DNA of 64,000 bases from an uncultured Elusimicrobia bacterium (lineage in GTDB: Bacteria > Elusimicrobiota > Elusimicrobia > F11), in the NCBI GenBank assembly GCA_964405835.1, contig CAYOPN010000004.1:4082-68081 (forward strand), written 5' to 3'. The notes beneath the pieces were generated by a model that worked only from the letters and a program-made list of their open reading frames with translations, made no database searches and was not told the DNA's origin. Positions 21,818-59,638 of this stretch are shown piece after piece. A program made the translations under genes and the position numbers. Position 1 is the first letter of the stretch. Every line of letters starts with the position of its first letter.

Positions 21818-21829
21818 GAGGGAAAGATC

Positions 21830-34181: not shown

Positions 34182-34247
34182 ATCAAAGTTTTTTACCGCC
34201 GCGTAAAAATCTCGAAACCTCCGCTGGACTTTGGTAGATTGTTGGTC

Positions 34248-34466: not shown

Positions 34467-34472
34467 ATTGAT

Positions 34473-39441: not shown

Positions 39442-39450
39442 GTACCAATC

Positions 39451-39518
39451 CTCAATCATCAAGCATCAAACTCTCAATTAATTTATTGGAATTTGATGCT
39501 TGAGAATTGATGATTGAG
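39451..39518. repeat. AT-rich long imperfect hairpin in the tldD-pmbA spacer
   Basis: ctcaatcatc+aagcatcaaa (39451-39470) pairs with tttgatgctt (39492-39501) and gatgattgag (39509-39518). That gives two 10-bp stems separated by a 7-nt bulge. Confidence 0.5.
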
Positions 39519-39535
39519 AATTAACAAGGACAAGA

Positions 39536-43302: not shown

Positions 43303-43635
43303 ATGAATTTTTTAAGAGACCTTGTCCGGTGGTTCATCAAAGGCGAGCGCCGCAAAAACACCCCGTCTTCTCAGCACGAAAATAAGGTGCCTGTCCAAAA
43401 GGTGTCCATTGAGCCTGCCGCCATCCCCGAAGTGACCGCTCCCGAAACCAATTACCAATCCCCAACTTTCGATTTTTTAAAAGAAAATTCTTCCGCCGAA
43501 TTCATGGTTGATCTGCAGTCGATCCGCCCATTGGCCGAGCAATTTGACCGGGCGCGTGAAGAACTCCTCAGAGAACTACAGCGTTTGGCCCCTCCGAAAA
43601 AGCGCATAACCGAAATCTTCCGAAAAGCCGCATGA
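43303..43635 (+). CDS. hypothetical protein
   Basis: A 110-aa ORF whose stop overlaps the PilZ gene start. I recognised no family. Confidence 0.35.
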   Translation: MNFLRDLVRWFIKGERRKNTPSSQHENKVPVQKVSIEPAAIPEVTAPETNYQSPTFDFLKENSSAEFMVDLQSIRPLAEQFDRAREELLRELQRLAPPKKRITEIFRKAA

Positions 43636-43994
43636 CCTCCAAAGACCGCCGTAAAGCGGCCCGCTACGAATCCACCCTCGACATACAGATCCGTTTTCTT
43701 CCCGATGGGACACCCATTCAAGGTCAGGGCGTCGAAATAGGGCCCAACGGCATGCGCGTGTTCACCACCATCCCTCTGGTTGAAGCGTCCTATATTCACA
43801 TCTCGTTTCAGGAAGCCTCCAACAACACCCACTGCGAAGGCCGCGTGGTCTGGACCCAGCGCAGCGCCTCTTCCGGGCGTTATGAAAGCGGCATCGATAT
43901 CCAACGCTGGGGGGGAGACGTTCCGGAAACGACCATCATGCAGATATCGCCCACCACCACCGCCAAGAAAGACCGCCGTTCCAAACCCCGCTAA
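43632..43994 (+). CDS. PilZ-domain protein (candidate c-di-GMP receptor)
   Basis: It has an N-terminal RRKAAR (RxxxR) and then a GVEIGPNGMRVFT block in the position of the D/NxSxxG motif. The size (120 aa) fits a stand-alone PilZ. Confidence 0.5.
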   Translation: MTSKDRRKAARYESTLDIQIRFLPDGTPIQGQGVEIGPNGMRVFTTIPLVEASYIHISFQEASNNTHCEGRVVWTQRSASSGRYESGIDIQRWGGDVPETTIMQISPTTTAKKDRRSKPR

Positions 43995-44068: not shown

Positions 44069-47000
44069 ATGAGAATGTCCTTCTCACGTCCGGTTTTTTC
44101 CCACGATACATTCACACTCCGCCGTTCTCTCGCGTTGTGGTTGTCGGTCATTTACTTTATGACCAACGTACTTTATGCGGGGGGGCCTGCCGGCCGCCCG
44201 GCCGCAGCGCCGCTGCTTCCTCCGGTAACGCGCGCGCTACCATCTTCGGGCACGAAAGATCTGTTCCGAAAAAATCCGGTCCAAACTTACGCCAATGTGA
44301 AAATGGCTGCCGCACCCGCGGGGCCGTCCCGAAAATCGGTCACGATCATTCAAGATGTTCACGCCAACGCCGACGCACAAAAGAACATCGCCAACATCAT
44401 CGGTGTCCTCGAAACGCAGACACCGCGAGTGATCGGCATCGAAGGCGCTTCCGGGTTCCTGAATTTCGGGCCCTATCGCCAATTGCCGCGCCAAGAAATC
44501 GTCCACAAAACCGGCGCAAAATATCTCGAGACAGGGAAACTTCTCGGTTCCTCCTACGCCGCATTGACCCACAGCGGCGCTCCTTCGCTGTTGTTTGGAA
44601 TTGAGAATCCCAATTTGTACCGGCGGAACGTGGAGGCGACACTGGAAGCCGATAAGGACCGCCCGGCCACGCTGCAATGGCTGGAACAAATGGGAAAGCG
44701 GAACGCGGCGGACAAGCTCACATCCTACGGTCCCGCGCTGAAAAAAATCGATCACCACATGCGCGCTTTCGCGCGCGGCGAATTGTCGCTCGGTGATTAT
44801 GTCGGACGCTTGATGGAATTCCACGATTTGCCGTCGTCGATGCCGCTATTGACGTTTCACGAGGCGGTCAAAATGGAGAAGCGACTCGACTTCGCCCTCG
44901 TGGAACGGGAACGCGCCGAAGCGCTGGAAATATTGACCCGGAAAATGCGGCCCGAAGAACTCAAAGAATTGGTCGATGCTTCGATGGCCTTTCAAAAAGG
45001 GGAGATTAGTTCCGGCGAATTTTACCGGCATTTGAAAATGCTGCTGACCAAGCATGACGTGATCAATGACAACCGGCGGACCCTTGGAGATTACTTGCAA
45101 TACGTGGCGCTGGCCGAGTCGATCAAAGCCGATGAGCTTCTGAAAGACCTGAACGCTTATGAATCCCAAATCGTAAAGGACCTTGCGACCACGTCCGAAC
45201 AGTCCCGGATCGCAGCGGAATCAAAATGGCTGTCGCTCGCGCGCAAACTCGTGAATTTCGAGCTGACGCAGGATGAGTGGATGGAATACAACGCCCTCAC
45301 CCCAGCCCTCTCCCTGAAGGGAGAGGGAGAACTTGCCTCTTTTGAGGATTTCTATCGGATCGCTGATGCTCGCAACGGCGCCATGGTTGAAAATCTACTT
45401 CGCGCGATGGGCCGGAAGAATTGCGCCGACGGCATTCTCATTGCCGGCGGGTTTCACGCCGATGGCCTTGTAGATCTATTAAATAAGCGTGGCGTGGCTG
45501 TGACAGTGTTGACGCCCAAAATTTCCAAATTGACCCAAGGATCGAAGCCGCTCGAGTATCTCACGATTTTCCAACGCGAAAAAACCCCGTTGAGCCGCCT
45601 GTTCCACGGCCAAAAACTTTTCTTGGGCGCTATCGATGGTCTGGCGCCGGGCGCGATGCTCGTCCCCGCCAAAAATATCGGCGATCAATTCCGTGACGAT
45701 TTAAAAGACGCCCTTCAAGATGCTGGCGTAGACGAGGCCCTGGTTGACCCGGTACTGGACTTTCAAAAAATAAAAGAACGCATTCGGCAGAAGTTTGGGC
45801 CGGAACCGATGGTCACTTCCCGCATCGGTCATCGAGGAAAACAAAAGGACCCGGTTGAACTGGTCGATTCCATCTACAACACGCCGCTTGAACACCCACT
45901 GACTAAAGCGCTTTCCCGGCTCCAGCAATCGAACCCCAAAAATTACGCGACACTTGTCGAAAAAATATCCATCAATGGCACATTGCAAATCTATTGGGCC
46001 AAAAACCTGCCGTCCGCGGCCGGGCTGTTTTCAATGCAAGAAGAGATTGAAGGGAAAATAATCACTCTGACAGGGCTGTTGTTGGACAACGACGCGCGCC
46101 CGGTGCTCGAAGCGGCAGCCAAAGGAAAATCCGCACTTCAAAAAAAGGCGGTGGAGGACCTTCTCTATTTGCTGTTGGTCCATGAAGCCGCCGAACTTGC
46201 CACGCGCGGCGGTGATGAAACCTTGACTCCCAATTTGGTCAACGAATGGAAAGCTACACTTGAAGAAATCCAGCACTACTATATTCCGCCGCTCAAATTC
46301 ATCAAAACAACCATTCAAACCATTCATAGAGGGCCTTTTGAAGCGCTCTTGCGAAAACTGGATCGCGTCGACCGAAAATCAAAACGCTACAGCCGAACGT
46401 TGACGCTTTACAATTTGCTTCGGGAAAGCACTATCGAGGAAATGCCAAAGGTAGTTTGGGATTACCTTATCAAAGAACCGGAATTCGCCGGACTGAAAAG
46501 GTCCGAAAAAATCTTTCCCGAAGCCCCTGCAAAAACCAAAGCGTTACCGAAAACAAAAAAACGGGTCAATCGGAAAAGGAAATTCGAGATCTCGTTTCCG
46601 CTGAAATCAAAAAAACGGACCAATCCGAAAATTCTAACCAGGATCATTTCCTCGCGCCTCGGATACAAGAGTGTGGCGCCGGAAGGCCCAGTGACACCGG
46701 TGGATATGCTGGAGATCGAGGATATTGGAGCGCATATCAAAGTTTCTCTCACACGGCTGAACCGATTCGACCCGGAATTGTACCGCGTTTTTCTTGAGCG
46801 AATCACGTTCAACGGCCATCCGCAAATGTATTGGGCCGACAACCTCCCGTCCGCGGCGGGCGTGTTCTCAATGGAGGATCCGGATAATCCCGAAGGCGCC
46901 CCAATCACTGGTTTCCTGATCGATTCGGCATTGCGGCCTTTCGTTGAGCCAATCGAAGCAGGCAATCGAGATCGCAATTTCGCGCGGATCAACCTCATGT

Positions 47001-50000
47001 TTTTGTTGCTGGTCCATGAAGCTACCGAATTATCAGTGCGCAAAGACGGCGAAACCATCACGCCGAACCTCGTCGCCGAGGTGAAAGCCATACTGAAAGA
47101 AGCGGACGCGTACCGCTACATCCTCGGCGAGGTTGAAAAAAACGATTTAAAAAAATTGCTTCGGGAAATTGCGGACACCGAAATCGGCATGCCCGACCGG
47201 TTCACGCAGGTATTGCAATTGTGGGACCGCCTCGCCGATCCCGAGCTCGCCAAAGAAATCATTTTGGGAGAGCTGGTCGAATTGATTCTCAACGCCGGCG
47301 ACGTGACGTTGAAAGGGTGGAAATCAGTCAAAGAATTTGTCGATGATTTCATGGGCCGGCCGGATCCGCTCGAACTTGGTGACGTGATCGGATTGAGTCG
47401 CGAAGGAACGTTTTCTTTTAAGAAACACCACAACCACATGAAGATTTCTCCGGATGGAAAGAATTTGTTGATTGCTGACAGGGATGGATGGACGCTATTG
47501 GTTCCGAGCGATTTCGAACCCGGCACCAGCTATGAAACCCCTTCCATTCGCGTTGGAATAAAAGTGGACGACATTGCATTCTCAGCCAACGGACGCATGG
47601 TCGCCTTTGCGCATGAAAACGGATATGTGACGTTGGGAAAAATCGGCGTTCAGACCAACCGCAGCTCCCCAATTCCAATCGAAGAGGTCACGTCATCAAA
47701 AATAAATGAAGATGGCGTTCGAAAAATACTTTTCACGCACGACGATCATTATCTGATCGTGTTTTCCAATTCCGGCTGGGTCAGCTTCCATGCGGTGATA
47801 TGGGACCAGGAAAAAACATCCATAACCGAGTTGAAAGCCCCCTCTATCTCCTATCAATTGGGTCAAAACTTCAGATGGTGGGACATGGCCGCTTCTCTGG
47901 ATGGAGAAACTCTGGTGTTCGGCGGAGAATCTCTTGTGCACGACGGCCCTCTGAACAAGGGAAAGGTTGTGGCCCTAACGCTTTTACGAGAACCCATGAA
48001 TGGAAAGATCCGATCATTTCAAGTCAAATGGTCTACCCCCATAAATGTGGCCATCCATAAAATCGCCATCTCTCCCGACAACCGGCTTTTGGCACTGAGA
48101 GGAGGCGATGAAATTTGGATCGCCGACGCCCCGCATGCCAAGAATATGCGCAAGGCCCCATTGCAAGGACAAAGAAGCCCCACGCCGATGTTCCTTTCCG
48201 ACAACCAGACACTCGTTGTGGAGAGTGATTTTGGGCATGTGGAAATTTTCCACCTTTCCCGGACTGGCCAAGATTTGAAAGAAGTAAAAAAAGTCGCCGG
48301 CCGCACCATCGGAATGCGCATTGGAGACATCGCGGTCTCACCAGATCAGTCTCATTTGTTTGTGCTCGATTACAACGATGAGGTCATCAAATTTGACTTG
48401 AAACGCGCCCACGAGCGCACCACCTCAGGGCCGGCAGGCCGGTCCAACGACGATCTTCAGGAAGAGATCCGAGACCTGCTCTTGATGCTGGAAGATTGGG
48501 AAACGCAGTTAACGCCTTACTATTTCACTGAGGATCATGGTAAAAAACCACTCTTGTCATCCATTATCGATTCCCACATCGCGACTCTGCTTGATTTGTT
48601 GGCGGTCTTTCCAAAACCCGATGCGCCAACGGACGAAGAGAAAATTCAAAAATTTCCAGAAATTTTAACGGGACTTCTCATGCCATTCGAGACCCCAACA
48701 AGGGACGCGAACGTGCAGCCCCGTCAGCGGCTTAAAGTAAAAGTTATTTTAAAAGTGATGGCCGACCTTTTATTAGAACAGGAAGAACCATGGGAAGCTG
48801 ATTTGAGCCGTATGGATGTCACTTTCATCGAGAAGGTCATGCAAATTTTTCTTCTCGAAGTCATTCGAATCATGACGGAAGAAATGAAAAATACGGACGC
48901 AAAGACATTCGAAACCCACCTCGACGAATTCATTGACCCGCTTTATCCCTATAGCATGCGAGGACCTTTGAAAAAGAAGGTCCTCAATCAATTCAATAAA
49001 CAATTTGCATCGCCCTCTCACACCCATTTGCTGACCGAGCTCCCGCCGGCTTACGGGCGCGGGCGGGCGCCGCACAGAGAAAAAGGTGGCATCAACGAGA
49101 AAATCGCGGCCGCGTTTGATCGCGGGGACGCGATCGTGATTGATAACAGTGAGCATCGACGATTGGGGCAAGCGCTGAAGGCGGCCGCGGCGCAGCAGAA
49201 AGACGCAACGCTCAAGCTTCCGGAGCTGATTGCGTTTTTCAATAAAACCCAGGTGGTGTTGGTCCAATCCCCAACCGCGATCCCCGGTCTTTATATTCGC
49301 GGCCCCGACGATTACGCGGTGGCCCATTTCGGCCACTACAAAGGCCGCAACAGCATCTTCATCGATACCGACGTCTTTAACTTCCTCAAAGAAAATCCCG
49401 CCCAACTCCCCGCGCTGCTCTTCTACGAATTGGCCAAAGTGGCCGGCCATGATCAGGGCCTGGCCGAAAAAATTGAGGCCGCCATCGCCGGCAAGGAACT
49501 GTCGGCCGCCGTCCAAGGGTTCATCGAGGAAAAAATCGAAGCGCATCCGACCCGCTCCAACGTAATTGCCTACTACGTGGCCCGCGAAATCATGATGACA
49601 GCTCTGATATCCGGCAACGCCCACGCCTACCGCCGCGCGCTCGAAGAATGCGCGGCGCAAGCGAAATTGGCGGAAGAAAAATTGGATGGGCCGGCCGAGG
49701 ATGTTTTGTCGCCCATTGTGCGGTTGCTGCGCTGGACCGACAAGTTGCTGTTCAATAATAAAGGAATCGGCGACGACCTTGAGCTGGTCCGCGTGCAAGA
49801 AGAACAACTCACAAAAGCCGAGAAAAAAATCATCGCAGAAGAAACGGACATGTTCCTCGAAGCGCTAGGGTTCGATGAAGAACTCCAAAAGGACCTGGCC
49901 CGAAAAATTAAGTTGATCACCTATCCGCTCACGATGCTCAACATGATGCCGCATTCGATCGAAGGGATCCGGTTCACTCCGGCAGCGCTTAAATCAGTGG

Positions 50001-56000: not shown

Positions 56001-59000
56001 TGCCCGAAGATTTTGAGAAAAAAACTCTCATAGAAAAATCGGCTGGTGTGATTGTGGTGCCAGACCGGAAGCCAACGGCGCGCATGGAAACGATCGGCGG
56101 CGCCACCTTCCTTGTCGTCAATGGCGTGGCCAACGCCGCATCGTTTAACGAAGCCGCCTCCTTGGCGCTTCAAGTTTACGCCAAGGCAAAAATGGGGGAG
56201 GGGAAGGGCGTTGAAAAATTCCCGTTTTATTACCGGGTTCTTAAAGCCGCTCACCGCCAAAAGCCGTCCGATGCGCGAATGCTCGGCAAAGGATTCACGG
56301 AGTCCGGCCTTCCCAAGGAATTCATCGACAACTTTATTGAACTCAATGATTCGTCATGGCGTCAGAAAAACGCGATGCTCGTGAACCGAAAACGCAACGC
56401 GTTGATGGTCCAACTGGATTCCCTGAAAATTTCCGATCAGGAGAAAAAAGCCTTGTTGATAGCCTTGAAAATCTTTTCCGCCTCTTACGATCCACTTACC
56501 AAGGACGTCGACGCGCGTTTATCTAAATTAACCGTTGTTTCCTCTCGATTAGGGTTCAAGAAAGAAAAACCGGCGGGGGCGGTCGACCCAATCGGACGCG
56601 TTGATGAAAGTTCGCTTGCCGCGGCGTTCGAGAAGGCGCTTGAACGGTTTAAGGCCCAACATGCCGATTTATACGAGGAGTTATTGCTCCGCATCACACC
56701 GCCCGGGGAAAACACCGTCCCCCAAATCTATTGGGCCAACAATCTCCCATCGGCCGCCGGCATTGTCGAAATCGAAGGCATCACGGGGTTGATGTTCGAC
56801 CCGGGAATGAAGAGCATTCTTAAAGCGGAACTGCTCTCGAAAGACAAGCTCCGCGTTATGGCGGTCGTGAATCTCTTTTATCTGCTGTTGGTGCATGAAG
56901 CGATGGAGGTGTCGGACCGCAAAGAAAACGACACGCTGCGGCCGAATTTTCTCAGCGAAATAAAAGCGGTGATCGCCGAAGCGTACGCTTTTTCCAGGTT
57001 GAGCCTTGATGAAAACCAAGCGCTCGGGCGCCTTTACGAGAAACTGGATGCCGGGAAGGGCCACCGCGGATTTGGGCTGTTATGGGATTTATTGAACAAG
57101 TTCAAAGGGGCCGCCATCGAATGCAAAGCCGGGCTGATGGCCCTAATGGACCTGCTGATGATCGACCCCGATTACGCCGGTGCCGAAAAATCCCCGGACA
57201 AGATACGGGCCGAATTAAAAGCGTCGCACGACGTAGACGAGCCCCGGAAAGTTTCGACGGGAACAGAACCTGATTTCGAAAAAATATTTCAAGACACACT
57301 CCCGGGCGGGGTGGCCGCTTTTTCATTGTCGGAGGAAACCGACGAATACGTGGTGGCCGGCCCCGATTATTTCCGGCTTTACTCAAACCACAGGAGCATC
57401 ATCGATCAAAACTTGAGGGACTCCCAATTGATGCACGAGGTCAAAGTGGGGAAAAACATCGCGGCCATTAAGCTCCAACGCGATAAGAACCAAATTCTCG
57501 TCGCTTGCAGCGATGGAACATTGTTGGGTTATCAACTCCTGGCAAACGAAGAAGGGGCCATAACCGGCATCAAAAAAATATTTAAACAGAACCAGAACCC
57601 TGGGATTTTATTCCTATTGCCTTTCTTTTCTCCGCGGCTTATCGCTACTTTCTCCCCGAACGGCGGAAGCGTGGTGTTTGCCAATCCGCGGACCGGCAAG
57701 TTCTTTATAGTGGGCATCCCGTACCCCATAAGTGGTTACCACCATACGAACATCATTTACAAGGGCCGGGCAGGGGAGGGGATCATCAAAATCGCCATTG
57801 CCCAAGATGGGCGCACCGTTGTGTTTCACAGCGCCGCCAAAAACCAGCTGGACATCCTGAGTATCAATCTAAGCCAAGAGCTACGTTTCCACAACGTGAT
57901 GGAAATGGCGACTGATGAGCTAATTTACGAACCGGTATTTTTATCTGGAAACTCCCTCGCCATACGTTTACAAACATCCTATGGAGAGTTCCTTCGAGTT
58001 TACGCGCCACTGTTTATTTTCAATAACGCATGGCATGCCAACTTCAAGGAGCACAAATTCCATGAAGATCCCACGAAGCTAAAGTTCTCTCCCGAAAACC
58101 CGAAAATCCTTCACATCACCGCGGGTGATGTTCAGTTATTTCAACTCTCACATGGAGCATACCCGCTCATGCGTCTGAGCGAAGCCCATACAACAGCGGC
58201 AGCACTCTTTCCAACCGAAGAAGCCATCTTTGTCGGCAACGACAACTCCTTCTCAATATGGCGGATCGGAAAAAAGGGGAACATCAGTGGCAAGGTGGTT
58301 TCCTCCCGCCTCGGGTTCAAGAAAGAGAAACCGGCGGGCGCGGTTGAACCGGTCGGGCGCGTTGCTGAAAGCGCGCTTGCCGCGGTGTTCGCGAAAGCGC
58401 TCGAACGGTTGAAGTCGCAGCATCCCGATTTGCACGGAGCCATGATCAAACGCATCACGCCATCAGGTGAAAATGCGGTCCCGCAAATCTACTGGGCCGA
58501 GAATCTGCCATCGGCCGCCGGTGTGATTGAAATCGACGGCCTGACCGGCGTGATGTTCGACAGTGAAATGAAACCGGTGTTGGAAGCGTTCCAGGGCAAT
58601 GCTCAAGAAGAACGTGCGATTGAAAATCTTTTCTATCTGCTGTTGGTCCACGAAGCCAAAGAAACCGCATCCCGCAAACCCAATGAAGCGATTACGCCGC
58701 ACATTCACCATGAAATGTCCGCGGTGTTGGAAGAGGTGCGAAGCTACTTGAAACTGACGATGGGTGAAGTAAAAACGCTCGACCGGTTGTTCATAAAGCT
58801 CGATGAGGGAAAACTGCACGAACCGTTCCGATCGGTTATCAGGATTTATGACCTATTCACCGCGACGACCGATCTCCTCAAAGAGGGATGGGCGAAGCTT
58901 TTGGCCCTCATCAAGCAGGACGATGAATACTCAGGACAAGAACTGTTGAAAGCCAAACCGTCGTGGTCGGCCACGGTTGCAAGCGCCATTGCCACCAACC

Positions 59001-59638
59001 TTGGACCGGCCAATTTGGATGTAAGCCGTCTCATGTGCGAGGGGAGCTTGGACAAAGCGGTATCTGTCGATGAGTACCGTGATGAAATCCAAATTTTGAC
59101 GGTCCATGATGAGAACGATCTAAAGTGGATTGGTCCGTTACTGCAACTGGTGCAGAAACACCGCTATGCCACTGGTTTTTCTTCCCGACTGCTTATTCTT
59201 AACACGTCCGGTCTGCAGCAATACGGAAGCTCCGAACATTACAACGCGTTAATTGGCCAGGCAATCGAGTTGGAATTGGCCGAATATCCGTATTGGAAAG
59301 ATTTTGCCATGGTTCTCAATAACAAGACGGATTTCACCGAGCTTCGCTATATCGCGGGCCTTCGTAATGACGTGGTGGTTCCATCTCTTGTACGGGAGAC
59401 TCTGAGAAATCGACACGGATCGAACCCTAACTCGTTCTGGGCGGGGTGGGTGAGGGGGAATAGGCCAGCGGAACGTTATTTCGTAACGGGAACTGATGTC
59501 GAATTTGAACATGACGATCTGGGTAGGGTGGGCGTGGTTTGGCTGCAGTCGGCAATGGATCAGGCCACGCCGCTCAGTCTTTCCGGCTACATGGACATGT
59601 TCCAAAAAGCGTTCTTGGCTGCCTCCAAAGCGGCGTAA
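44069..59638 (+). CDS. giant multidomain protein (5,189 aa): ChaN/Tiki-like domain, repeated novel modules, two beta-propellers, HExxH region, charged tract, vWA, TM hairpin, two AAA_5 ATPase domains
   Basis: A single uninterrupted ORF of 15,570 nt. Recognisable motifs are listed in the sub-features below. Confidence 0.9.
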   Translation: MRMSFSRPVFSHDTFTLRRSLALWLSVIYFMTNVLYAGGPAGRPAAAPLLPPVTRALPSSGTKDLFRKNPVQTYANVKMAAAPAGPSRKSVTIIQDVHANADAQKNIANIIGVLETQTPRVIGIEGASGFLNFGPYRQLPRQEIVHKTGAKYLETGKLLGSSYAALTHSGAPSLLFGIENPNLYRRNVEATLEADKDRPATLQWLEQMGKRNAADKLTSYGPALKKIDHHMRAFARGELSLGDYVGRLMEFHDLPSSMPLLTFHEAVKMEKRLDFALVERERAEALEILTRKMRPEELKELVDASMAFQKGEISSGEFYRHLKMLLTKHDVINDNRRTLGDYLQYVALAESIKADELLKDLNAYESQIVKDLATTSEQSRIAAESKWLSLARKLVNFELTQDEWMEYNALTPALSLKGEGELASFEDFYRIADARNGAMVENLLRAMGRKNCADGILIAGGFHADGLVDLLNKRGVAVTVLTPKISKLTQGSKPLEYLTIFQREKTPLSRLFHGQKLFLGAIDGLAPGAMLVPAKNIGDQFRDDLKDALQDAGVDEALVDPVLDFQKIKERIRQKFGPEPMVTSRIGHRGKQKDPVELVDSIYNTPLEHPLTKALSRLQQSNPKNYATLVEKISINGTLQIYWAKNLPSAAGLFSMQEEIEGKIITLTGLLLDNDARPVLEAAAKGKSALQKKAVEDLLYLLLVHEAAELATRGGDETLTPNLVNEWKATLEEIQHYYIPPLKFIKTTIQTIHRGPFEALLRKLDRVDRKSKRYSRTLTLYNLLRESTIEEMPKVVWDYLIKEPEFAGLKRSEKIFPEAPAKTKALPKTKKRVNRKRKFEISFPLKSKKRTNPKILTRIISSRLGYKSVAPEGPVTPVDMLEIEDIGAHIKVSLTRLNRFDPELYRVFLERITFNGHPQMYWADNLPSAAGVFSMEDPDNPEGAPITGFLIDSALRPFVEPIEAGNRDRNFARINLMFLLLVHEATELSVRKDGETITPNLVAEVKAILKEADAYRYILGEVEKNDLKKLLREIADTEIGMPDRFTQVLQLWDRLADPELAKEIILGELVELILNAGDVTLKGWKSVKEFVDDFMGRPDPLELGDVIGLSREGTFSFKKHHNHMKISPDGKNLLIADRDGWTLLVPSDFEPGTSYETPSIRVGIKVDDIAFSANGRMVAFAHENGYVTLGKIGVQTNRSSPIPIEEVTSSKINEDGVRKILFTHDDHYLIVFSNSGWVSFHAVIWDQEKTSITELKAPSISYQLGQNFRWWDMAASLDGETLVFGGESLVHDGPLNKGKVVALTLLREPMNGKIRSFQVKWSTPINVAIHKIAISPDNRLLALRGGDEIWIADAPHAKNMRKAPLQGQRSPTPMFLSDNQTLVVESDFGHVEIFHLSRTGQDLKEVKKVAGRTIGMRIGDIAVSPDQSHLFVLDYNDEVIKFDLKRAHERTTSGPAGRSNDDLQEEIRDLLLMLEDWETQLTPYYFTEDHGKKPLLSSIIDSHIATLLDLLAVFPKPDAPTDEEKIQKFPEILTGLLMPFETPTRDANVQPRQRLKVKVILKVMADLLLEQEEPWEADLSRMDVTFIEKVMQIFLLEVIRIMTEEMKNTDAKTFETHLDEFIDPLYPYSMRGPLKKKVLNQFNKQFASPSHTHLLTELPPAYGRGRAPHREKGGINEKIAAAFDRGDAIVIDNSEHRRLGQALKAAAAQQKDATLKLPELIAFFNKTQVVLVQSPTAIPGLYIRGPDDYAVAHFGHYKGRNSIFIDTDVFNFLKENPAQLPALLFYELAKVAGHDQGLAEKIEAAIAGKELSAAVQGFIEEKIEAHPTRSNVIAYYVAREIMMTALISGNAHAYRRALEECAAQAKLAEEKLDGPAEDVLSPIVRLLRWTDKLLFNNKGIGDDLELVRVQEEQLTKAEKKIIAEETDMFLEALGFDEELQKDLARKIKLITYPLTMLNMMPHSIEGIRFTPAALKSVAELFNMFALCQTNGMGGMVMFSGILEKDLTIQLLQTGNLSFFKAAFLHEVTHYLAFQNALPFDGGHETITQAISTAVLLVDGGVPGLMEPLGDHAESKKIQGDLVALAEKRAGSDAVPPNQAGITNIVQAYLRKHAPDVLKGTPAQVQDQIQRMSGVYLGAFAWAHWKKDKEINVYKLIIDYGKRHLPRVRNADYRRNLTYRDRLLIDELIREKLAPVAQVTLPDAQVRFVPRSRRDLEKPGKGTWNYERLPDHKLHYIPWDLIEYGEDASVGLTLQEIFRSKFSSEDVIEEDFNNLYFRLLFGIAETNRFVAHGLSENPGRVEEIEAFYRKKLRIMDLEIEKERMAEKSQFVQFLDGLLYALMMTKDEKEIVHDPRVTDTEVKAALDNAIPILFGAVAMDKQGFYEVVRDEVWPAVQKLLEQDLEKLKRSEEEKQAINDMLEKGEIEIADPDEEMMKGKSKPKPGDKIKISLSSDGEGDFDMDDLSEKARENLQKAIDEHLKKMSAKEREELAKKAGAKAKQEMGKQAREAAGGMSDVTGERRGKPSGKGKPQGSGKPGGNLEQDVKDLHDLADQIEKEAGAVERAAEDAQKNAGKAGTKAGAIDRQGGGNSAQGQGINDSVEELIEKLKELREKARRFQDKAEEIGGHSDDLNDGLEGEKLSDKAQDLRDKMRDKSDAIERLGQELNDKAAEADEIAHESAAQGEKLKEMLDMDPKRVDSIKGHAQDIQKKINEVREKLNQVRKDAEEAVTASEQLSSESGELQEQIKRDTPIVSEGEEDENNPNVGDPGGHISARKKEPRDNNERKRVMAKDKKGTSGPKHSMDPKINELIKEYLEDNEDIDFTSAAERDLEQKQALDQYTGLTEGQRVAYNKIRDISAEYESTLREEILNALDATERSDMMRRQRKGRIDPRRLSIVETGITDPFQIKREANKKKLRISILIDVSGSMYHDPNNLDLQNPTSAMLASSNRINNAIKVVILFLEAFREDPRVEIEVGAFASTQKIFKKYEDPITDELIYKLIDQLLNHNLGQDNSDLAGLSMIVISMREREAKEGPAAKLVTVVADGGIHPSDRPGIEQILTENTDIAFMAFGIGSQAADVKNAYAPFGRSVNALSKLVEETGEWLKEQADRLMSFEFLLLIGTVALFFNSGPFKLGMPLLMMMLLFGSVLGVVVPSISITKNLDTENFEVVPSNGDRYLQVKNGKYPTFKAKINGEGINIPNEEMLETETNVKDVVKIIKRVQRQYLDRSPLYIEGEAGTGKNKKIYYSAKLMRKSVRFMALHEDVHEDDLVERRGVGEKEHGKTDWILQPLVEAMRNGDWIIFDEVNKAKPEVMARLNQIVQSRRVMLHDGTEVTAKEGFAIIMTGNPPPSANDAEVYHVNKQSAEMLDRLRGMRIGYLPDKEELQLLLSILMKRRGYTDVKQIPAADQKFLKELIDAANLIRDNYEGLDKATGRSRRGKMIARPLSTRSLVNITKRLADFPDDRKRPRSLVRRFYSYEWSKPAQIKAVEAALDNKLTEKDEDLIFNDKDLKGPEYTEEKGVRYLKFKGIKVKAGPGAPAKLADIPLDMRVTWTETNLRYLYELMMDFGQENHMLLIGEAGTGKDLLAEYLCYALHGPKFDTFGVTRNAMAEDLVAYLGLGEGTKMDEKGMLVAAGKHETGIVPAYVVRAMEAGRPIILDEINKGKPEVFAVLNNILEYKWIDLANGRRVHAQPGFMIIATMNPSNKKAYLGNFDLSGEFLDRFSVHKFDYLKPGEEATILSQFNDDLIAEDGLRFGKIRKEVINRLVATTNVLREKYRNNRLPHPVSMRAEKRMIVTLAEYPEEYKDLNELLEECFVFSDPVHRQAVLEAAKAEKLGELKDIIEVRIGVGDAEIDAVLEKIKSESEKGHAPDEWTQQWIQLLRRLDGLLGKKSAAKKLTPELRSKTKAILERMVATLLPPPLAGRALLGALINHVRSRLDGVEVPELPEITSEMSHAEWGNVLQNLTVIIDFTLLPEDFEKKTLIEKSAGVIVVPDRKPTARMETIGGATFLVVNGVANAASFNEAASLALQVYAKAKMGEGKGVEKFPFYYRVLKAAHRQKPSDARMLGKGFTESGLPKEFIDNFIELNDSSWRQKNAMLVNRKRNALMVQLDSLKISDQEKKALLIALKIFSASYDPLTKDVDARLSKLTVVSSRLGFKKEKPAGAVDPIGRVDESSLAAAFEKALERFKAQHADLYEELLLRITPPGENTVPQIYWANNLPSAAGIVEIEGITGLMFDPGMKSILKAELLSKDKLRVMAVVNLFYLLLVHEAMEVSDRKENDTLRPNFLSEIKAVIAEAYAFSRLSLDENQALGRLYEKLDAGKGHRGFGLLWDLLNKFKGAAIECKAGLMALMDLLMIDPDYAGAEKSPDKIRAELKASHDVDEPRKVSTGTEPDFEKIFQDTLPGGVAAFSLSEETDEYVVAGPDYFRLYSNHRSIIDQNLRDSQLMHEVKVGKNIAAIKLQRDKNQILVACSDGTLLGYQLLANEEGAITGIKKIFKQNQNPGILFLLPFFSPRLIATFSPNGGSVVFANPRTGKFFIVGIPYPISGYHHTNIIYKGRAGEGIIKIAIAQDGRTVVFHSAAKNQLDILSINLSQELRFHNVMEMATDELIYEPVFLSGNSLAIRLQTSYGEFLRVYAPLFIFNNAWHANFKEHKFHEDPTKLKFSPENPKILHITAGDVQLFQLSHGAYPLMRLSEAHTTAAALFPTEEAIFVGNDNSFSIWRIGKKGNISGKVVSSRLGFKKEKPAGAVEPVGRVAESALAAVFAKALERLKSQHPDLHGAMIKRITPSGENAVPQIYWAENLPSAAGVIEIDGLTGVMFDSEMKPVLEAFQGNAQEERAIENLFYLLLVHEAKETASRKPNEAITPHIHHEMSAVLEEVRSYLKLTMGEVKTLDRLFIKLDEGKLHEPFRSVIRIYDLFTATTDLLKEGWAKLLALIKQDDEYSGQELLKAKPSWSATVASAIATNLGPANLDVSRLMCEGSLDKAVSVDEYRDEIQILTVHDENDLKWIGPLLQLVQKHRYATGFSSRLLILNTSGLQQYGSSEHYNALIGQAIELELAEYPYWKDFAMVLNNKTDFTELRYIAGLRNDVVVPSLVRETLRNRHGSNPNSFWAGWVRGNRPAERYFVTGTDVEFEHDDLGRVGVVWLQSAMDQATPLSLSGYMDMFQKAFLAASKAA
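44330..45520 (+). other. ChaN/Tiki/TraB-superfamily-like domain of the giant ORF
   Basis: The N-terminal block VTIIQDVHANADAQKNIANII and the C-terminal block ARNGAMVENLL...GILIAGGFHADGLVDLLNKRGVAV resemble the GE-H...RD/N-MA...GxxH pattern of ChaN/TraB/GumN proteins. This is from memory and has not been searched. Confidence 0.4.
45878..46300 (+). repeat. 'YWA-NLPSAAG / LLLVHEAxE' module, copy 1
   Basis: LQIYWAKNLPSAAGLFSM...LTGLLLDNDARPVLE...LLYLLLVHEAAELATRGGDETLTPNLVNEWKATLEE. Confidence 0.7.
46640..47130 (+). repeat. 'YWA-NLPSAAG / LLLVHEAxE' module, copy 2
   Basis: SSRLGYKSVAPEGPV...PQMYWADNLPSAAGVFSM...ITGFLIDSALRPFVE...LMFLLLVHEATELSVRKDGETITPNLVAEVKAILKE. Confidence 0.7.
47438..48410 (+). 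other. beta-propeller 1 (WD40/PD40-like blades)
   Basis: Recurrent blade-like units: ISPDGKNLLIADRDG, IAFSANGRMVAFAHENG, ILFTHDDHYLIVFSNSG, ASLDGETLVFGG, IAISPDNRLLALRGGD, IAVSPDQSHLFVLDYND. Confidence 0.55.
50141..50155 (+). other. HExxH motif (HEVTH) in the central helical region
   Basis: FFKAAFLHEVTHYLAF was read in frame (codon 2025). It sits at a position comparable to the HEAxE of the repeated modules. Confidence 0.4.
51262..52545 (+). other. ~430-aa D/E/K-rich, coiled-coil-like low-complexity tract
   Basis: EEEKQAINDMLEKGEIEIADPDEEMMKGK...KAQDLRDKMRDKSDAIERLGQELNDKAAEADE... It lies directly N-terminal to the vWA domain, as in CobT/NorD/midasin-type proteins. Confidence 0.7.
52808..53340 (+). 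other. von Willebrand factor A (vWA) domain with a MIDAS motif
   Basis: KKLRISILIDVSGSMYHD; the DxSGS motif is at 52838-52855. Downstream blocks VTVVADGG and IAFMAFGIG follow. Confidence 0.7.
53414..53545 (+). other. internal hydrophobic hairpin (one long or two short TM helices)
   Basis: FEFLLLIGTVALFFNSGPFKLGMPLLMMMLLFGSVLGVVVPSI. Confidence 0.6.
53705..54225 (+). other. AAA_5 (MoxR/CobS/NorQ/dynein-related) ATPase domain 1
   Basis: Walker A GEAGTGKN at 53777-53800, Walker B WIIFDEVNKAKPEVMARLNQIVQ, and FAIIMTGNP. Confidence 0.75.
54745..55285 (+). other. AAA_5 ATPase domain 2
   Basis: Walker A GEAGTGKD at 54806-54829, Walker B PIILDEINKGKPEVFAVLNNILE, and FMIIATMNP. Confidence 0.75.
56534..57010 (+). 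repeat. 'YWA-NLPSAAG / LLLVHEAxE' module, copy 3
   Basis: VVSSRLGFKKEKPAGAVDPIGRV...PQIYWANNLPSAAGIVEIEGITGLMFDPGMKSILK...LFYLLLVHEAMEVSDRKENDTLRPNFLSEIKAVIAE. Confidence 0.8.
57265..58285 (+). other. beta-propeller 2 (putative)
   Basis: Blade-like units include AAFSLSEETDEYVVAGPD, IKLQRDKNQILVACSDGTLLGY, TFSPNGGSVVFANPRTG, IAIAQDGRTVVFHS and FSPENPKILHITAGD. Confidence 0.45.
58295..58770 (+). repeat. 'YWA-NLPSAAG / LLLVHEAxE' module, copy 4
   Basis: VVSSRLGFKKEKPAGAVEPVGRV...PQIYWAENLPSAAGVIEIDGLTGVMFDSEMKPVLE...LFYLLLVHEAKETASRKPNEAITPHIHHEMSAVLEE. Its first ~130 nt are visibly similar to copy 3 at the nucleotide level. Confidence 0.8.

What the first reader, a model, noticed from the sequence alone, without database searches (positions are those of the whole stretch)
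44069..59638. 5,189-aa single ORF with a domain combination I cannot match to any described protein family
One uninterrupted 15,570-nt reading frame holds recognisable motifs along its whole length.

Its parts, in order:
- a hydrophobic N-terminal segment
- a ChaN/Tiki-like domain
- two copies of an unknown module
- a beta-propeller
- a ~950-aa helical region with an HExxH motif
- a ~430-aa charged tract
- a vWA domain
- a TM hairpin
- two AAA_5 domains
- a helical region
- module 3, propeller 2 and module 4
- an unassigned ~240-aa C-terminus

ATP-driven MoxR/vWA machinery fused in cis to propellers and putative zincin-like modules suggests a self-contained mechano-enzymatic or sensing machine rather than a passive adhesin. 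It loosely recalls two things. One is the vWA-MoxR-associated (VMAP) conflict systems described by Aravind and colleagues, where these parts are separate genes. The other is eukaryotic midasin.
Basis: partly seen in the sequence, partly recalled or inferred. Interest (0 to 1): 0.88.

Follow-up and report, generated by a model that had tools for sequence, protein, structure and literature searches.

The report
Giant Omnitrophota MoxR–vWA fusion protein
This is a real 5,189-residue gene, almost certainly from an Omnitrophota bacterium, that fuses an ATP-driven MoxR-type motor pair, its vWA adaptor and a conserved HExxH (metalloprotease-like) domain into one chain, flanked by four copies of an undescribed ~215-residue module; the kind of machine is known, but this single-chain form and two of its domains are not.

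Summary
It is not an assembly artefact. Independently assembled proteins are collinear with it: P0005 (5,634 aa), P0008 (5,493 aa, named only 'AAA family ATPase', Candidatus Omnitrophota) and an Omnitrophota MAG contig, at 36-40% identity over 2,500-2,900 residues.

Domain calls:
- Two AAA_5 domains are solid.
- vWA is sub-threshold by profile but has an invariant DxSGS MIDAS motif.
- The four modules, propeller 1 and the TM hairpin are confirmed.
- ChaN/Tiki-like is supported only through homologues.
- Propeller 2 is unconfirmed.
- The HExxH motif plus a Glu 15 residues later is invariant in seven proteins, but no zincin fold was recovered.

A core of HExxH domain, charged tract, vWA, (TM) and two AAA_5 domains, flanked by modules, recurs in seven proteins of two clades. 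The module occurs in only 38 of 1.84 billion representative proteins and matches no Pfam family or PDB fold.

Best reading: a cis-fused, membrane-associated MoxR–vWA remodelling or processing machine, with no link to VMAP defence systems. The most novel open reading is that the modules are zincin-like autoprocessing domains, making this a polyprotein. Function and topology remain inferred.

The parts
44069..59638 (+). Whole ORF, 5189 codons plus stop
   Evidence: Collinear with the independent proteins P0005 and P0008 and with the L002 contig.
44120..44182 (+). N-terminal hydrophobic, signal-peptide-like segment (aa ~18-38), preceded by Arg residues
   Evidence: Homologues P0001, P0002, P0005, P0008, P0011 and P0031 have signal-peptide-like N-termini by inspection; no signal-peptide predictor was run.
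44330..45658 (+). N-terminal domain (aa ~88-530), a divergent Tiki/ChaN-superfamily-like domain with a helical, EF-hand-like insert. Motifs: IQDVHAN at aa 94-100 and GGFHADG at aa 460-466.
   Evidence: Invariant D/H, AQ, EG, R and GGxH (A2). PF04187 hits 3 of 9 family members at E down to 3e-6, below the cut-off. Weak calmodulin hits to the insert, E ~1e-3.
45809..46498 (+). Module copy 1 (aa 581-810): SRIGH, QIYWA..NLPSAAG, LLLVHEAAE
46631..47293 (+). Module copy 2 (aa 855-1075): SSRLG, QMYWA, LLLVHEATE
47366..48448 (+). Beta-propeller 1 (aa ~1100-1460), WD40-like
   Evidence: Pfam propeller families at E 4e-8 and 2e-7, below their gathering scores
48449..49765 (+). Region aa ~1461-1899 of unknown function (no structure prediction was run on it). 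It is conserved in P0005 and partly in P0008.
   Evidence: helA segment. No Pfam hit.
49766..51283 (+). Conserved all-alpha HExxH domain (aa 1900-2405). HEVTH at aa 2025-2029 (nt 50141-50155) plus E2044.
   Evidence: H, E, H and the downstream E are invariant in 7 proteins of 2 clades (A3). AF2 model pLDDT 72, pTM 0.52, all helices. No PDB fold match, no PDB sequence match, no Pfam match.
51284..52615 (+). Charged K/E/D-rich tract (aa ~2406-2849), coiled-coil or disordered linker
   Evidence: Composition. Only coiled-coil-type weak hits: SMC/Rad50, laminin. Present but poorly conserved in orthologues.
52616..53398 (+). vWA domain (aa 2850-3110) with MIDAS DVSGS at aa 2924-2928 (nt 52838-52852) and VVADGG at aa 3043-3048
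   Evidence: Pfam VWA E 1.2e-3, VWA_2 and VWA_CoxE at ~1e-2, all below cut-off. DxSGS invariant (A5). Profile against PDB: PilB vWA E 0.014, CobT E 0.048.
53405..53554 (+). Hydrophobic hairpin (aa 3113-3162) between the vWA and the first AAA domain
   Evidence: Kyte-Doolittle peaks 1.73 and 2.36. It is a 36-aa insertion relative to L002. Absent in P0008, present in P0005.
53636..54568 (+). AAA_5 domain 1 with lid (aa 3190-3500). Walker A GEAGTGKN at 3237-3244, Walker B IIFDEVN at 3303-3309, sensor-1 IIMTGNP at 3344-3350.
   Evidence: Pfam AAA_5 E 1.7e-38. Aligned to midasin, NorQ, CbbQ and CobS. Motif positions.
54656..55618 (+). AAA_5 domain 2 with lid (aa 3530-3850). Walker A GEAGTGKD at 3580-3587, Walker B IILDEIN at 3659-3665, sensor-1 IIATMNP at 3700-3706.
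   Evidence: Pfam AAA_5 E 2.9e-20. Internal duplicate of AAA1, 30% identity..
55619..56518 (+). Post-AAA region (aa 3851-4150) of unknown function, conserved in clade-1 orthologues
   Evidence: postAAA segment found in P0005, P0008 and L002
56525..57193 (+). Module copy 3 (aa 4153-4375)
57251..58285 (+). Candidate beta-propeller 2 (aa ~4395-4739), unconfirmed
   Evidence: No Pfam hit. Seven blade-like repeats by eye. Single-sequence hhalign to WD40 regions P 0.007-0.04.
58286..58942 (+). Module copy 4 (aa 4740-4958). Closest to copy 3: 58% aa identity, and 78% DNA identity over 281 nt.
58943..59635 (+). C-terminal ~230 aa, unassigned. Ends ...SKAA.
   Evidence: Shared only with P0005 in a local jackhmmer search. 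No Pfam hit.

Best explanation
The gene encodes a membrane-associated, single-chain version of a MoxR–vWA chaperone or processing system, specific to Omnitrophota.

Shown:
- Two MoxR-class AAA_5 domains lie directly after a MIDAS-bearing vWA domain, which itself follows a long charged linker and a ~500-aa domain with an invariant HExxH...E motif.
- This block is conserved as a unit in seven proteins of two clades.
- The block is flanked by copies of an undescribed ~215-aa module.

Inferred by analogy with NorQ–NorD, CbbQ–CbbO, CobS–CobT, RavA–ViaA and midasin:
- Three protomers (2 AAA domains each) would build a six-domain ring.
- The vWA MIDAS site captures an acidic residue or extended peptide of a target.
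- ATP hydrolysis is transmitted through the charged or helical linker to pull on or twist the bound target.

Inferred from the motif alone: the adjacent HExxH domain then cleaves or otherwise processes the target. That would make this the cis equivalent of the membrane-proximal MoxR–vWA–peptidase system proposed for MoxR–vWA–YebA operons.

Speculative: the propellers and the four modules act as target-recognition, scaffolding or processing elements. The signal-peptide-led Tiki/ChaN-like N-terminal domain, if the signal peptide is functional, lies outside the cytoplasmic membrane.
For: - AAA_5 twice, above the gathering score.
- The nearest solved relatives are midasin, NorQ, CbbQ and CobS, and the nearest NCBIfam models are GvpN and CobS. 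All belong to the MoxR/chelatase clade, whose sub-clades (apart from dynein) work with vWA partners (PMC7159879; PMC13036017).
- Walker B DE and the sensor-1 Asn align with those of midasin.
- The vWA has an invariant DxSGS motif, and the profile weakly hits CobT just at the pre-vWA/MIDAS region.
- A charged tract immediately before the vWA also occurs in midasin (own knowledge).
- The core order HExxH, charged tract, vWA, (TM), AAA, AAA is conserved in the giant, P0005, P0008, L002, P0024, P0037 and P0042.
- HExxH plus E is invariant across both clades.
- A hydrophobic region sits between the vWA and AAA domains in 5 of 7 members.
- No conserved partner genes lie around the giant or two relatives, which fits a self-contained unit.
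- A MoxR–vWA–peptidase degradation model already exists for operon-encoded systems (PMC3495828).
Against: - Both Walker A motifs are non-canonical (GKN and GKD instead of GK[ST]). GKN is conserved in both clades and GKD in the four clade-1 members read (window, L002, P0005, P0008). Three clade-1 orthologues replace the Walker B Asp of AAA2 (SE/TE). ATPase activity is therefore not assured.
- The vWA is below Pfam gathering scores.
- The HExxH domain model is all-alpha with a low-confidence stretch where a zincin sheet would be, and it has no fold or profile match. Peptidase activity is motif-level inference only.
- Topology is unresolved. The N-terminus looks like an export signal, and P0008 has no other hydrophobic segment. 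Taken at face value that places the ATPases outside the cytoplasm.
- No target is known.
- Oligomeric state is untested.
Confidence: 0.5

Rival explanations
1. Polyprotein. The four modules are minimal zincin-like (HExxE/HExxH) autoprocessing domains. Each cuts at or near its own N-terminal S-S-R-L-G motif. The 5,189-aa precursor would then be released as about five pieces:
- the exported Tiki/ChaN-like enzyme;
- module 1;
- module 2, propeller 1 and the HExxH–vWA–AAA core;
- module 3 and propeller 2;
- module 4 and the C-terminal domain.
For: - Every module starts with a short, strongly conserved linear motif (phi-S-S-R-L-G). About 20 variable residues follow before the folded part begins. 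That stretch has the lowest confidence in the AF2 model.
- The third motif is HExxE in most copies and HExxH in some (P0018 HEARH; P0036 and P0041 HETTH/HETIH; the gene downstream of P0024 HEAMH). This is the exchange expected of a metal ligand.
- 34 of 56 copies have both motifs in canonical form (odds ratio 4.4, Fisher p 0.035, not corrected for phylogeny).
- Where His is lost (P0008, L002, P0031), SRLG is replaced by RSE[LVA]R.
- Modules sit at the boundaries between unrelated domains (WD40, HEAT-like, ClpB-like AAA, CPBP) in 38 proteins.
- Three SprT-like zincins are among the top 25 BFVD fold matches.
Against: - The fold matches are not significant (E 0.18-1), and the PDB gives none.
- HExxE is not a known zincin signature (own knowledge).
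- Stand-alone module proteins also carry the motif 10-25 residues from their own start, so it may simply be part of the domain.
- Copies with a degenerate HE motif persist, which suggests a non-catalytic role at least for those.
- There are no cleavage data of any kind.
Confidence: 0.18
2. Exported or surface-displayed predation or episymbiosis factor, like the larger Omnitrophota giant proteins. The signal peptide exports the chain. The propellers, modules and vWA bind prey-surface molecules. The ATPase and peptidase parts would act only after delivery into an ATP-containing prey cell.
For: - The N-termini of the giant and of P0005, P0008, P0011, P0031, P0001 and P0002 look like Sec signals.
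- P0008 has no other hydrophobic segment.
- Omnitrophota giant proteins have been linked to attachment and cell-wall attack (10.1101/2023.11.21.568195, abstract and title; AAA_5 is among their 20 most frequent domains).
- The window carries a MurNAc/anhydro-MurNAc salvage cluster.
Against: - AAA+ ATPases need ATP.
- The same N-terminal domain is fused to typically cytoplasmic enzymes: NAD-glutamate dehydrogenase in P0003 and a B12-radical SAM enzyme in P0004.
- No adhesin-type repeats, secretion-system signals or toxin domains were detected.
- The 2026 catalogue reads nearly half (46%, the largest class) of the long Omnitrophota proteins as inner-membrane-anchored with cytoplasmic content (10.64898/2026.06.07.730766).
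Confidence: 0.15
3. Anti-phage or conflict system of the MoxR–vWA ternary type (VMAP, iSTAND, FtsH or beta-propeller classes), collapsed into one gene.
For: - It has a MoxR-like AAA, a vWA and beta-propellers, and one class of these systems has a propeller fused to the vWA (PMC7159879).
- There are faint bpMoxR matches at E 0.07-0.09.
Against: - No PADLOC model matches beyond generic AAA noise.
- There is no VMAP, iSTAND or FtsH component and no effector domain.
- The gene sits between PilZ and miaA-hflX-plsY in a housekeeping context.
- The loci of two relatives show no defence neighbours.
- The bpMoxR score is far below its cut-off.
Confidence: 0.05
4. Artefact: a chimeric assembly, or a run of fused or decaying genes read as one ORF.
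For: The source genome could not be found, so reads could not be inspected.
Against: - 15,570 nt without a stop.
- The same domain order occurs in the independently assembled P0005 (Logan), P0008 (NCBI MAG, 80-kb contig) and L002 (GTDB genome), with 36-40% identity along 2,500-2,900 residues.
- Functional motifs are conserved throughout.
Confidence: 0.02

Closest known systems
Bacterial MoxR-class AAA+ / vWA pairs (NorQ–NorD, CbbQ–CbbO, CobS–CobT, RavA–ViaA)
   Same: - AAA_5/MoxR-clade ATPase domain. PDB sequence hits: NorQ E 1e-10, CbbQ E 2e-8, CobS E 3e-5.
- A MIDAS-type vWA partner reached through a linker.
- The vWA profile weakly hits CobT.
- The mechanism proposed here is borrowed from these systems (PMC13036017).
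   Different: - There, the ATPase and the vWA protein are separate, small proteins, and the ATPase has one AAA domain that forms homohexamers.
- Here, the vWA and a tandem AAA pair are on one 5,189-aa chain, with a hydrophobic hairpin between them.
- The Walker A motifs are GKN and GKD.
- There are large extra domains.
- No metal-cofactor client is evident.
Midasin / Rea1 (eukaryotic)
   Same: - It is the best PDB sequence match (E 5e-43, summed over several AAA domains).
- Tandem AAA_5 domains and a vWA/MIDAS domain are on one giant chain.
- A charged tract lies immediately before the vWA.
   Different: - Midasin has six AAA domains forming the ring within one chain, and its acidic tract and MIDAS domain lie at the C-terminus, after the AAA ring. 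Here there are two AAA domains, and the charged tract and vWA precede them.
- The best single-domain scores against midasin (37 bits) are no better than against NorQ (43 bits).
- Midasin has no HExxH domain, no propellers, no modules and no membrane segments.
MoxR–vWA–YebA (transglutaminase-like peptidase) operons, proposed as a membrane-proximal degradation system (Zhang and Aravind 2012, PMC3495828)
   Same: The logic is the same: the vWA recruits, the MoxR ATPase unwinds or remodels, an associated peptidase cuts, and the system is membrane-associated.
   Different: - The peptidase-like part here is an HExxH domain unrelated to transglutaminase-like peptidases.
- All parts are fused.
- Activity is unproven in both cases.
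MoxR–vWA ternary conflict systems (VMAP, iSTAND, FtsH and beta-propeller classes; Kaur et al. 2020, PMC7159879)
   Same: They share the MoxR–vWA couple. One class has a propeller fused to the vWA.
   Different: - There is no third component and no effector domain.
- There is no PADLOC match.
- The bpMoxR profile scores only E 0.07-0.09.
- The neighbourhood is housekeeping.
Long multidomain ('giant') proteins of Omnitrophota (West-Roberts et al. 2023 preprint; Nielsen and Lui 2026 preprint)
   Same: - The taxon is the same: the named relatives are nearly all Candidatus Omnitrophota.
- The chain is long, carries a signal peptide or TM segments, and fuses unrelated domains.
- AAA_5 and radical SAM are among the frequent domains of those giants. 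Radical SAM occurs here only in the relative P0004, not in this protein.
   Different: - Those studies catalogue proteins of at least 10,000 aa (Nielsen and Lui) or far larger ones (West-Roberts). This one is 5,189 aa.
- Neither text mentions vWA, MoxR or midasin.
- The module, the HExxH domain and this architecture are not described there.
Tiki / ChaN / TraB-PrgY / erythromycin-esterase superfamily (for the N-terminal domain only)
   Same: - The pattern of conserved His, Glu, Arg and GxxH is similar (that this pattern typifies the superfamily is from my own knowledge).
- PF04187 hits 3 of 9 family members.
- The domain follows a signal peptide.
   Different: - The giant's own copy has no Pfam hit.
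- All hits are below the gathering score.
- The domain carries a ~200-aa helical insert with weak EF-hand-like similarity.
- There is no fold-level test.

Membership tests
MoxR-class AAA+ (Pfam AAA_5) | Profile match above the curated cut-off | tested here: met
   PF07728 scores 132 bits (two stretches) and 73 bits against a cut-off of 22.
MoxR-class AAA+ (Pfam AAA_5) | Canonical Walker A GxxxxGK[ST] | tested here: not met
   GEAGTGKN (aa 3237-3244) and GEAGTGKD (aa 3580-3587) align to the GKT of midasin. GKN is conserved in both clades and GKD in the four clade-1 members read.
MoxR-class AAA+ (Pfam AAA_5) | Walker B hhhhDE and sensor-1 Asn | tested here: met
   IIFDEVN and IILDEIN, and IIMTGNP and IIATMNP, align to the midasin motifs. 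In P0005, P0008 and L002 the Asp of AAA2 is T or S.
MoxR-class AAA+ (Pfam AAA_5) | Ring-forming oligomer with ATPase activity | not testable with these tools
   Needs biochemistry or a multimer model.
vWA / MIDAS domain | Profile match above the curated cut-off | tested here: not met
   VWA 19.6 bits against 23.8; VWA_2 17 against 27; VWA_CoxE 15.5 against 26.4. Profile against PDB: PilB vWA E 0.014, CobT E 0.048.
vWA / MIDAS domain | MIDAS DxSxS motif plus a later Asp | tested here: met
   D2924, S2926 and S2928 are invariant in 6 of 6 aligned sequences. VVADGG at aa 3043-3048 is conserved in clade 1.
Midasin | Six tandem AAA domains in one chain | tested here: not met
   There are only two AAA_5 domains.
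Midasin | Order: AAA ring, linker, D/E-rich tract, C-terminal MIDAS | tested here: not met
   The charged tract and vWA come before the AAA pair.
VMAP / MoxR–vWA ternary conflict systems | A third conserved component (VMAP, iSTAND, FtsH, or a propeller fused to the vWA) plus effector domains, and models in the defence library | tested here: not met
   No PADLOC family matches beyond generic AAA noise. bpMoxR scores E 0.07-0.09 against a cut-off of 27 bits. The neighbours are housekeeping genes.
Tiki/ChaN superfamily (N-terminal domain) | Match to PF04187 or a related profile | tested here: inconclusive
   The giant's copy has no hit at E up to 10. 3 of 9 homologues hit, best E 3e-6. P0001 scores 24.4 bits against a cut-off of 27.7.
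Tiki/ChaN superfamily (N-terminal domain) | Conserved His / Glu / Arg / GxxH constellation | tested here: met
   D37, H39, E66, R376 and G401-G402-x-H404 are invariant in 9 sequences. That this equals the superfamily's catalytic set is from my own knowledge, not a structural test.
Zincin (gluzincin-like) metallopeptidase (HExxH domain, aa 1900-2405) | HExxH plus a third ligand | tested here: met
   H2025, E2026, H2029 and E2044 are invariant in 7 proteins of two clades.
Zincin (gluzincin-like) metallopeptidase (HExxH domain, aa 1900-2405) | Zincin fold (sheet plus active-site helix), or homology to a peptidase family | tested here: inconclusive
   The AF2 model is all-alpha, with pLDDT below 50 in the 30 residues before the motif helix. 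No Foldseek hit at E below 0.5. The best Pfam hit is DUF4344 at E 0.22.
Zincin-like fold (the repeated module) | Metal-binding HExxH-type helix after a beta-sheet, and fold similarity to zincins | tested here: inconclusive
   The motif is HExxE, or HExxH in a few copies. The AF2 element order is strand, helices, 3-strand meander, helices. The PDB gives no match. BFVD gives three SprT-like hits at E 0.18-1, probability 0.23-0.60.
Beta-propeller (WD40-like) | Profile match | tested here: inconclusive
   Propeller 1 hits propeller families at E 4e-8 and 2e-7, below their very high cut-offs. Propeller 2 has no hit and weak hhalign P 0.007-0.04.
Omnitrophota giant proteins as catalogued in the literature | Length of at least 10 kAA (2026 catalogue) or far larger (2023 study), and an Omnitrophota host | tested here: not met
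   5,189 aa. The host is inferred only from relatives. The source genome was not found.

The most novel reading that the evidence does not exclude
The ~215-aa module (S-S-R-L-G ... YWA..PSAAG ... LLLVHExxE) is a new family of minimal metallopeptidase-like autoprocessing domains. It would punctuate long Omnitrophota proteins, so that this 5,189-aa chain, and by extension many 'giant' Omnitrophota ORFs, are bacterial polyproteins cut into working pieces after synthesis or export. The HExxH–vWA–AAA core would be one of the released machines.
Probability: 0.15. Interest if true: 0.85.

Novelty: new variant of a known kind. Interest (0 to 1): 0.62.

Why it matters
MoxR–vWA couples are widespread, but their clients and mechanics are known for only a handful. 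A natural single-chain fusion fixes stoichiometry and partner identity. It also brings a candidate peptidase and candidate substrate-binding propellers into the same molecule, which makes the 'recruit, pull, cut' model directly testable.

The work also defines two domains with no Pfam or PDB counterpart:
- the repeated module, found in 38 of 1.84 billion representative proteins;
- the invariant HExxH...E domain.

It further shows that the Tiki/ChaN-like N-terminal domain is a recurrent export-side cap on long Omnitrophota proteins that carry cytoplasmic-type enzymes.

If the modules prove to be self-cleaving, the current picture of Omnitrophota giant proteins as single huge polypeptides would need revision.

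Tried and rejected
Searches that failed or found nothing:
- Whole-protein homologue searches failed: too long, then timed out.
- The word-indexed search found only N-terminal-domain relatives with aa 1-1100, nothing with the HExxH region, and five weak or fragmentary hits with the AAA pair. No split-gene version of the system was found.
- The exact-match look-up of the neighbouring MiaA found nothing. The source genome is not in the GTDB representatives either, so the organism is inferred only from relatives.
- Both metagenome scans found nothing.
- The promoter and terminator scan was at chance level.
- There are no tRNA genes or Rfam families in the window.

Ideas tested and dropped:
- A shared C-terminal 'bookend' domain, suggested because several relatives end in ..AA. 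A local jackhmmer search links the giant's C-terminus only to P0005.
- A fifth, degenerate module in aa 1700-1800, suspected by eye. It is not supported by the broad module HMM.
- Homology between the module and the HExxH domain. hhalign gives probability 0.1.
- PDB sequence searches of the N-terminal half gave nothing. The profile of the HExxH domain gave nothing.
- Foldseek on both models gave no significant match.
It was rerun without that row.
- A defence-system reading was rejected on the PADLOC result and the genomic context.

Full report
**1. The observation**

The ORF listing returns one ORF at 44069..59638 on the + strand, 5189 aa, with an ATG start. Translation shows no internal stop. 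An in-frame stop lies four codons upstream, so the start cannot be further 5'. GC content (0.50-0.54) is slightly below the rest of the window. The A-rich skew at 50-56 kb coincides with the K/E-rich tract.

The flanks are ordinary chromosomal genes. Upstream are TrpRS, two TldD/PmbA paralogues, an MBOAT protein and a small PilZ protein. Downstream are MiaA, HflX and PlsY. There are no tRNA genes or Rfam elements.

**2. The ORF is a real gene, not a mis-join**

A genome scan with the module alignment found two loci:
- L002 is a 10.6-kb contig of an Omnitrophota MAG that is a single open frame from end to end.
- L001 is a 2,226-aa ORF in Candidatus Omnitrophus magneticus.

L002 aligns collinearly with aa 1822-4255 of the giant at 36.5% identity.

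The exhaustive profile search returned two full-length counterparts, P0005 (5,634 aa) and P0008 (5,493 aa).
- P0005 matches aa 17-734, 862-1103, 1634-4369, 4739-4955 and 5006-5189, in the same order.
- P0008 matches aa 1824-4308 at 40% identity.

These come from different sources: Logan, an NCBI MAG on an 80-kb contig, and a GTDB genome. Three independent assemblies with the same order, and with conserved catalytic motifs, exclude a chimera or a decaying gene run.

**3. Anatomy, part by part**

*Strong calls*
- There are two AAA_5 domains (E 1.7e-38 and 2.9e-20). They are internal duplicates at ~30% identity.
- Against solved structures the pair hits midasin (E 5e-43, summed over several of its six AAA domains), NorQ (1e-10), CbbQ and CobS.
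- NCBIfam puts the pair nearest GvpN and CobS.
- The printed alignments place GEAGTGKN and GEAGTGKD on the GKT of midasin, IIFDEVN and IILDEIN on Walker B, and IIMTGNP and IIATMNP on sensor 1.
- The Asn after the Walker A lysine of AAA1 is conserved in both clades of the family. The Asp in AAA2 is conserved in the four clade-1 members read. Three clade-1 orthologues replace the Walker B Asp of AAA2 by Ser or Thr. The nucleotide sites are therefore intact in outline but atypical.

*The vWA domain*
- The vWA call is weaker by profile: VWA E 1.2e-3 with 19.6 bits against a cut-off of 23.8, plus VWA_2 and VWA_CoxE near 1e-2.
- The MIDAS DxSGS motif is invariant in six aligned sequences.
- The profile weakly hits the vWA of PilB and the pre-vWA/MIDAS stretch of CobT.

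*The charged tract*
- Before the vWA lies a ~450-aa tract with 43-51 acidic and 37-39 basic residues per 200 aa.
- It gives only coiled-coil-type weak hits.

*The HExxH domain*
- Before the charged tract lies a ~500-aa domain with HEVTH at aa 2025-2029.
- In an alignment of seven proteins from two clades, H2025, E2026, H2029 and E2044 are invariant, together with about 30 other positions.
- The AF2 model (pLDDT 72, pTM 0.52) is all-helical, with a low-confidence stretch just before the motif helix.
- Foldseek, PDB sequence profiles and Pfam (best hit DUF4344 'putative metallopeptidase', E 0.22) give nothing significant.
- The metal-site signature is therefore strongly conserved, but the fold assignment is open.

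*The hydrophobic hairpin*
- The hairpin (aa 3113-3162) is real.
- It is a 36-residue insertion relative to L002. It is absent from P0008 and present, in a different form, in P0005 and in clade 2.

*The module*
- The four modules are 33-58% identical to each other.
- They share three motifs: S-S-R-L-G, Q-I-Y-W-A-x-N-L-P-S-A-A-G and L-L-L-V-H-E-A-x-E.
- The module profile finds only 38 representative proteins among 1.84 billion.
- An alignment of 62 near-complete copies shows the same three motifs throughout. The third is HExxE in most copies, HExxH in a few, and degenerate in others.
- The AF2 model (pLDDT 72, pTM 0.74) has this order: a strand, two helices, a three-strand meander, then helices carrying HExxE.
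- The PDB gives no match.
- Among viral models, three SprT-like zincins appear in the top 25, but at E 0.18-1.

*The propellers*
- Propeller 1 has propeller-family hits at E 4e-8 and 2e-7.
- Propeller 2 has none. It remains a pattern-level call.

*The N-terminal domain*
- It recurs in eight other proteins. The residues D..H, AQ, EG, R and GGxH are invariant.
- The Tiki/ChaN profile PF04187 hits three of the nine, with best E 3e-6, all below the cut-off.
- Its central insert gives weak calmodulin hits (E ~1e-3).
- In every member with an intact start it follows a signal-peptide-like segment.

*The C-terminus*
- The last ~230 residues are shared only with P0005.

**4. What is conserved as a unit**

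Local iterative searches with each segment show the block HExxH domain, (charged tract), vWA, AAA, AAA in seven proteins: the giant, P0005, P0008, L002, P0024, P0037 and P0042. Modules lie on one or both sides of the block. Five of the seven have a hydrophobic region between the vWA and the AAA domains.

The relatives that carry a source name are nearly all Candidatus Omnitrophota. The only annotations are 'AAA family ATPase' or 'hypothetical protein'.

The loci of P0024 and P0042 show no conserved partner genes. The gene overlapping the end of P0024 encodes another signal-peptide-plus-module protein, with HEAMH.

No split-gene version of the system turned up, and none was found in metagenome contigs.

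**5. How it most likely works**

The AAA domains belong to the MoxR/chelatase/midasin clade. Apart from dynein, its sub-clades work with a vWA partner. The vWA partner binds a client peptide through its MIDAS site, and force is transmitted through helical and charged linkers (PMC7159879). In NorQ–NorD a finger of the vWA enters the ring pore, and ATPase activity twists and stretches a linker (PMC13036017).

Here the couple is fused. Two AAA domains per chain imply three chains per six-domain ring (inference). The invariant HExxH...E domain lies on the other side of the charged tract. This suggests that the captured client is processed. That reading parallels the membrane-proximal MoxR–vWA–peptidase degradation system proposed for MoxR–vWA–YebA operons (PMC3495828).

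I put this reading at about 0.5. The fusion, the conservation and the motif integrity are shown. Ring formation, ATPase activity, peptidase activity and the client are all inferred.

Weak points:
- the atypical Walker A motifs;
- the sub-threshold vWA;
- the unassigned fold of the HExxH domain;
- topology.

On topology, the N-terminus looks exported, yet ATPases need a cytoplasm. P0008 has no other hydrophobic segment.

**6. Rivals**

(a) *Polyprotein.* The SSRLG motif is a short linear element. It sits about 20 variable residues ahead of the folded module and lies at the junctions between unrelated domains in many proteins. The HExx[EH] exchange is what a metal ligand would show. Canonical forms of the two motifs co-occur (34 of 56 copies; odds ratio 4.4, p 0.035, uncorrected for phylogeny). 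Where His is lost, SRLG becomes RSE[LVA]R. Against this, there is no significant fold match, HExxE is not an established zincin signature, stand-alone module proteins keep the motif, and there are no cleavage data. I put it at about 0.18. It is compatible with the core mechanism above.

(b) *Exported predation or episymbiosis factor acting in prey* (about 0.15). In favour are the signal peptides, the biology proposed for Omnitrophota giants, and the MurNAc salvage genes in the window. Against are the need for ATP and the fusion of the same N-terminal domain to cytoplasmic-type enzymes.

(c) *VMAP-type defence system* (about 0.05). It is rejected on the PADLOC result, the genomic context and the absence of a third component.

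(d) *Artefact* (about 0.02).

**7. Comparison with what is known, and novelty**

The kind of system, a MoxR–vWA couple, is well known. So is the habit of Omnitrophota of encoding very long multidomain, membrane-associated proteins (10.1101/2023.11.21.568195; 10.64898/2026.06.07.730766). Those studies treat proteins of at least 10 kAA, and neither mentions vWA, MoxR or midasin.

What is new:
- the single-chain architecture;
- the tandem AAA pair with GKN and GKD Walker A motifs;
- the conserved HExxH...E domain;
- the repeated module.

None of these has a Pfam, NCBIfam, PADLOC or PDB counterpart in the libraries searched.

I file it as a new variant of a known kind. It is not a member of midasin, of the VMAP systems or of any named peptidase family (see the membership table).

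I score interest at 0.62. A specialist would find the fusion and the two orphan domains noteworthy, and the polyprotein possibility exciting. The taxonomic setting makes a long odd protein less surprising, and no function is demonstrated.

Noticed in passing
window 29418-35996 (both strands): A cluster for peptidoglycan-sugar salvage: NamZ exo-N-acetylmuramidase, a sodium:solute symporter, the anhydro-MurNAc kinase AnmK, a SIS-domain (MurQ-like) protein and a GH3 (NagZ-like) hydrolase. This fits an organism that consumes cell-wall material.
   Followed up: partly
window 11508-17420 (+), with 17434-24666: A second large ORF of 1,970 aa. It has a signal-peptide-like start, is rich in T/V/G/N/S, has no Pfam hit, and is unrelated to the giant's family. 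It is followed by a FlgD-Ig-domain protein, a 993-aa TPR protein, ExbB/MotA and a TonB-C protein.
   Followed up: partly
window 43303-43994 (+): Two small ORFs lie directly upstream of the giant on the same strand. The second (120 aa) is a PilZ-domain protein, a possible c-di-GMP receptor. The first (110 aa) has no Pfam hit. Whether they are co-transcribed with the giant is unknown.
   Followed up: no
giant aa ~190-330 (window ~44636-45058); alignment A2 profile positions 132-241: The helical insert inside the Tiki/ChaN-like domain gives many weak calmodulin (EF-hand pair) hits at E ~1e-3 to 2e-2. The loops lack the usual acidic ligands.
   Followed up: partly
P0003, P0004, P0001, P0002, P0011, P0031: The same signal-peptide plus Tiki/ChaN-like N-terminal domain caps otherwise unrelated long proteins. 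Examples are an NAD-glutamate dehydrogenase (P0003) and a B12-binding radical SAM enzyme (P0004). A hydrophobic segment usually lies between the cap and the enzyme.
   Followed up: partly
L002 (whole contig) and P0008: In these two orthologues the module's SSRLG motif is replaced by a recurring R-S-E-[LV]-R 'punctuation'. It occurs about four times in L002 and about six times in P0008, including at the site where the window protein has its TM hairpin. Their modules have lost the His of HExxE.
   Followed up: partly
window 56525-57193 and 58286-58942: Modules 3 and 4 are much closer to each other (58% aa identity; 78% DNA identity over 281 nt) than to modules 1 and 2. This points to a more recent internal duplication of the module(-propeller) unit.
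   Followed up: yes
L003 22709-25003: The gene overlapping the stop of the clade-2 relative P0024 encodes another signal-peptide plus module protein. Its motif reads HEAMH, a true HExxH.
   Followed up: partly
C-termini of the giant (window 59624-59635), P0005, P0008, P0010 and P0004: Several family members end in ...AA (SKAA, EQAA, AIAA, AIAA, RIAA). No shared C-terminal domain could be shown. The meaning is unknown.
   Followed up: partly
P0024, P0037, P0042 (alignment A5): In clade 2 the vWA lacks the ADGG strand at the usual place. A 'LIVLTDGNP'-type strand appears after the GIG motif instead, as if the domain were rearranged or interrupted.
   Followed up: no
P0013 (3,829 aa, Deltaproteobacteria MAG): This is the only named module-bearing protein outside Omnitrophota. 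It has several CPBP/Rce1-like intramembrane protease repeats at the N-terminus, five modules (some degenerate) and WD40 regions. Its junctions often read ...D-G-G....
   Followed up: no
window 38065-40837 (+): Two adjacent TldD/PmbA-family metallopeptidase genes and an MBOAT acyltransferase lie a few kilobases upstream of the giant. No link to the giant was tested.
   Followed up: no
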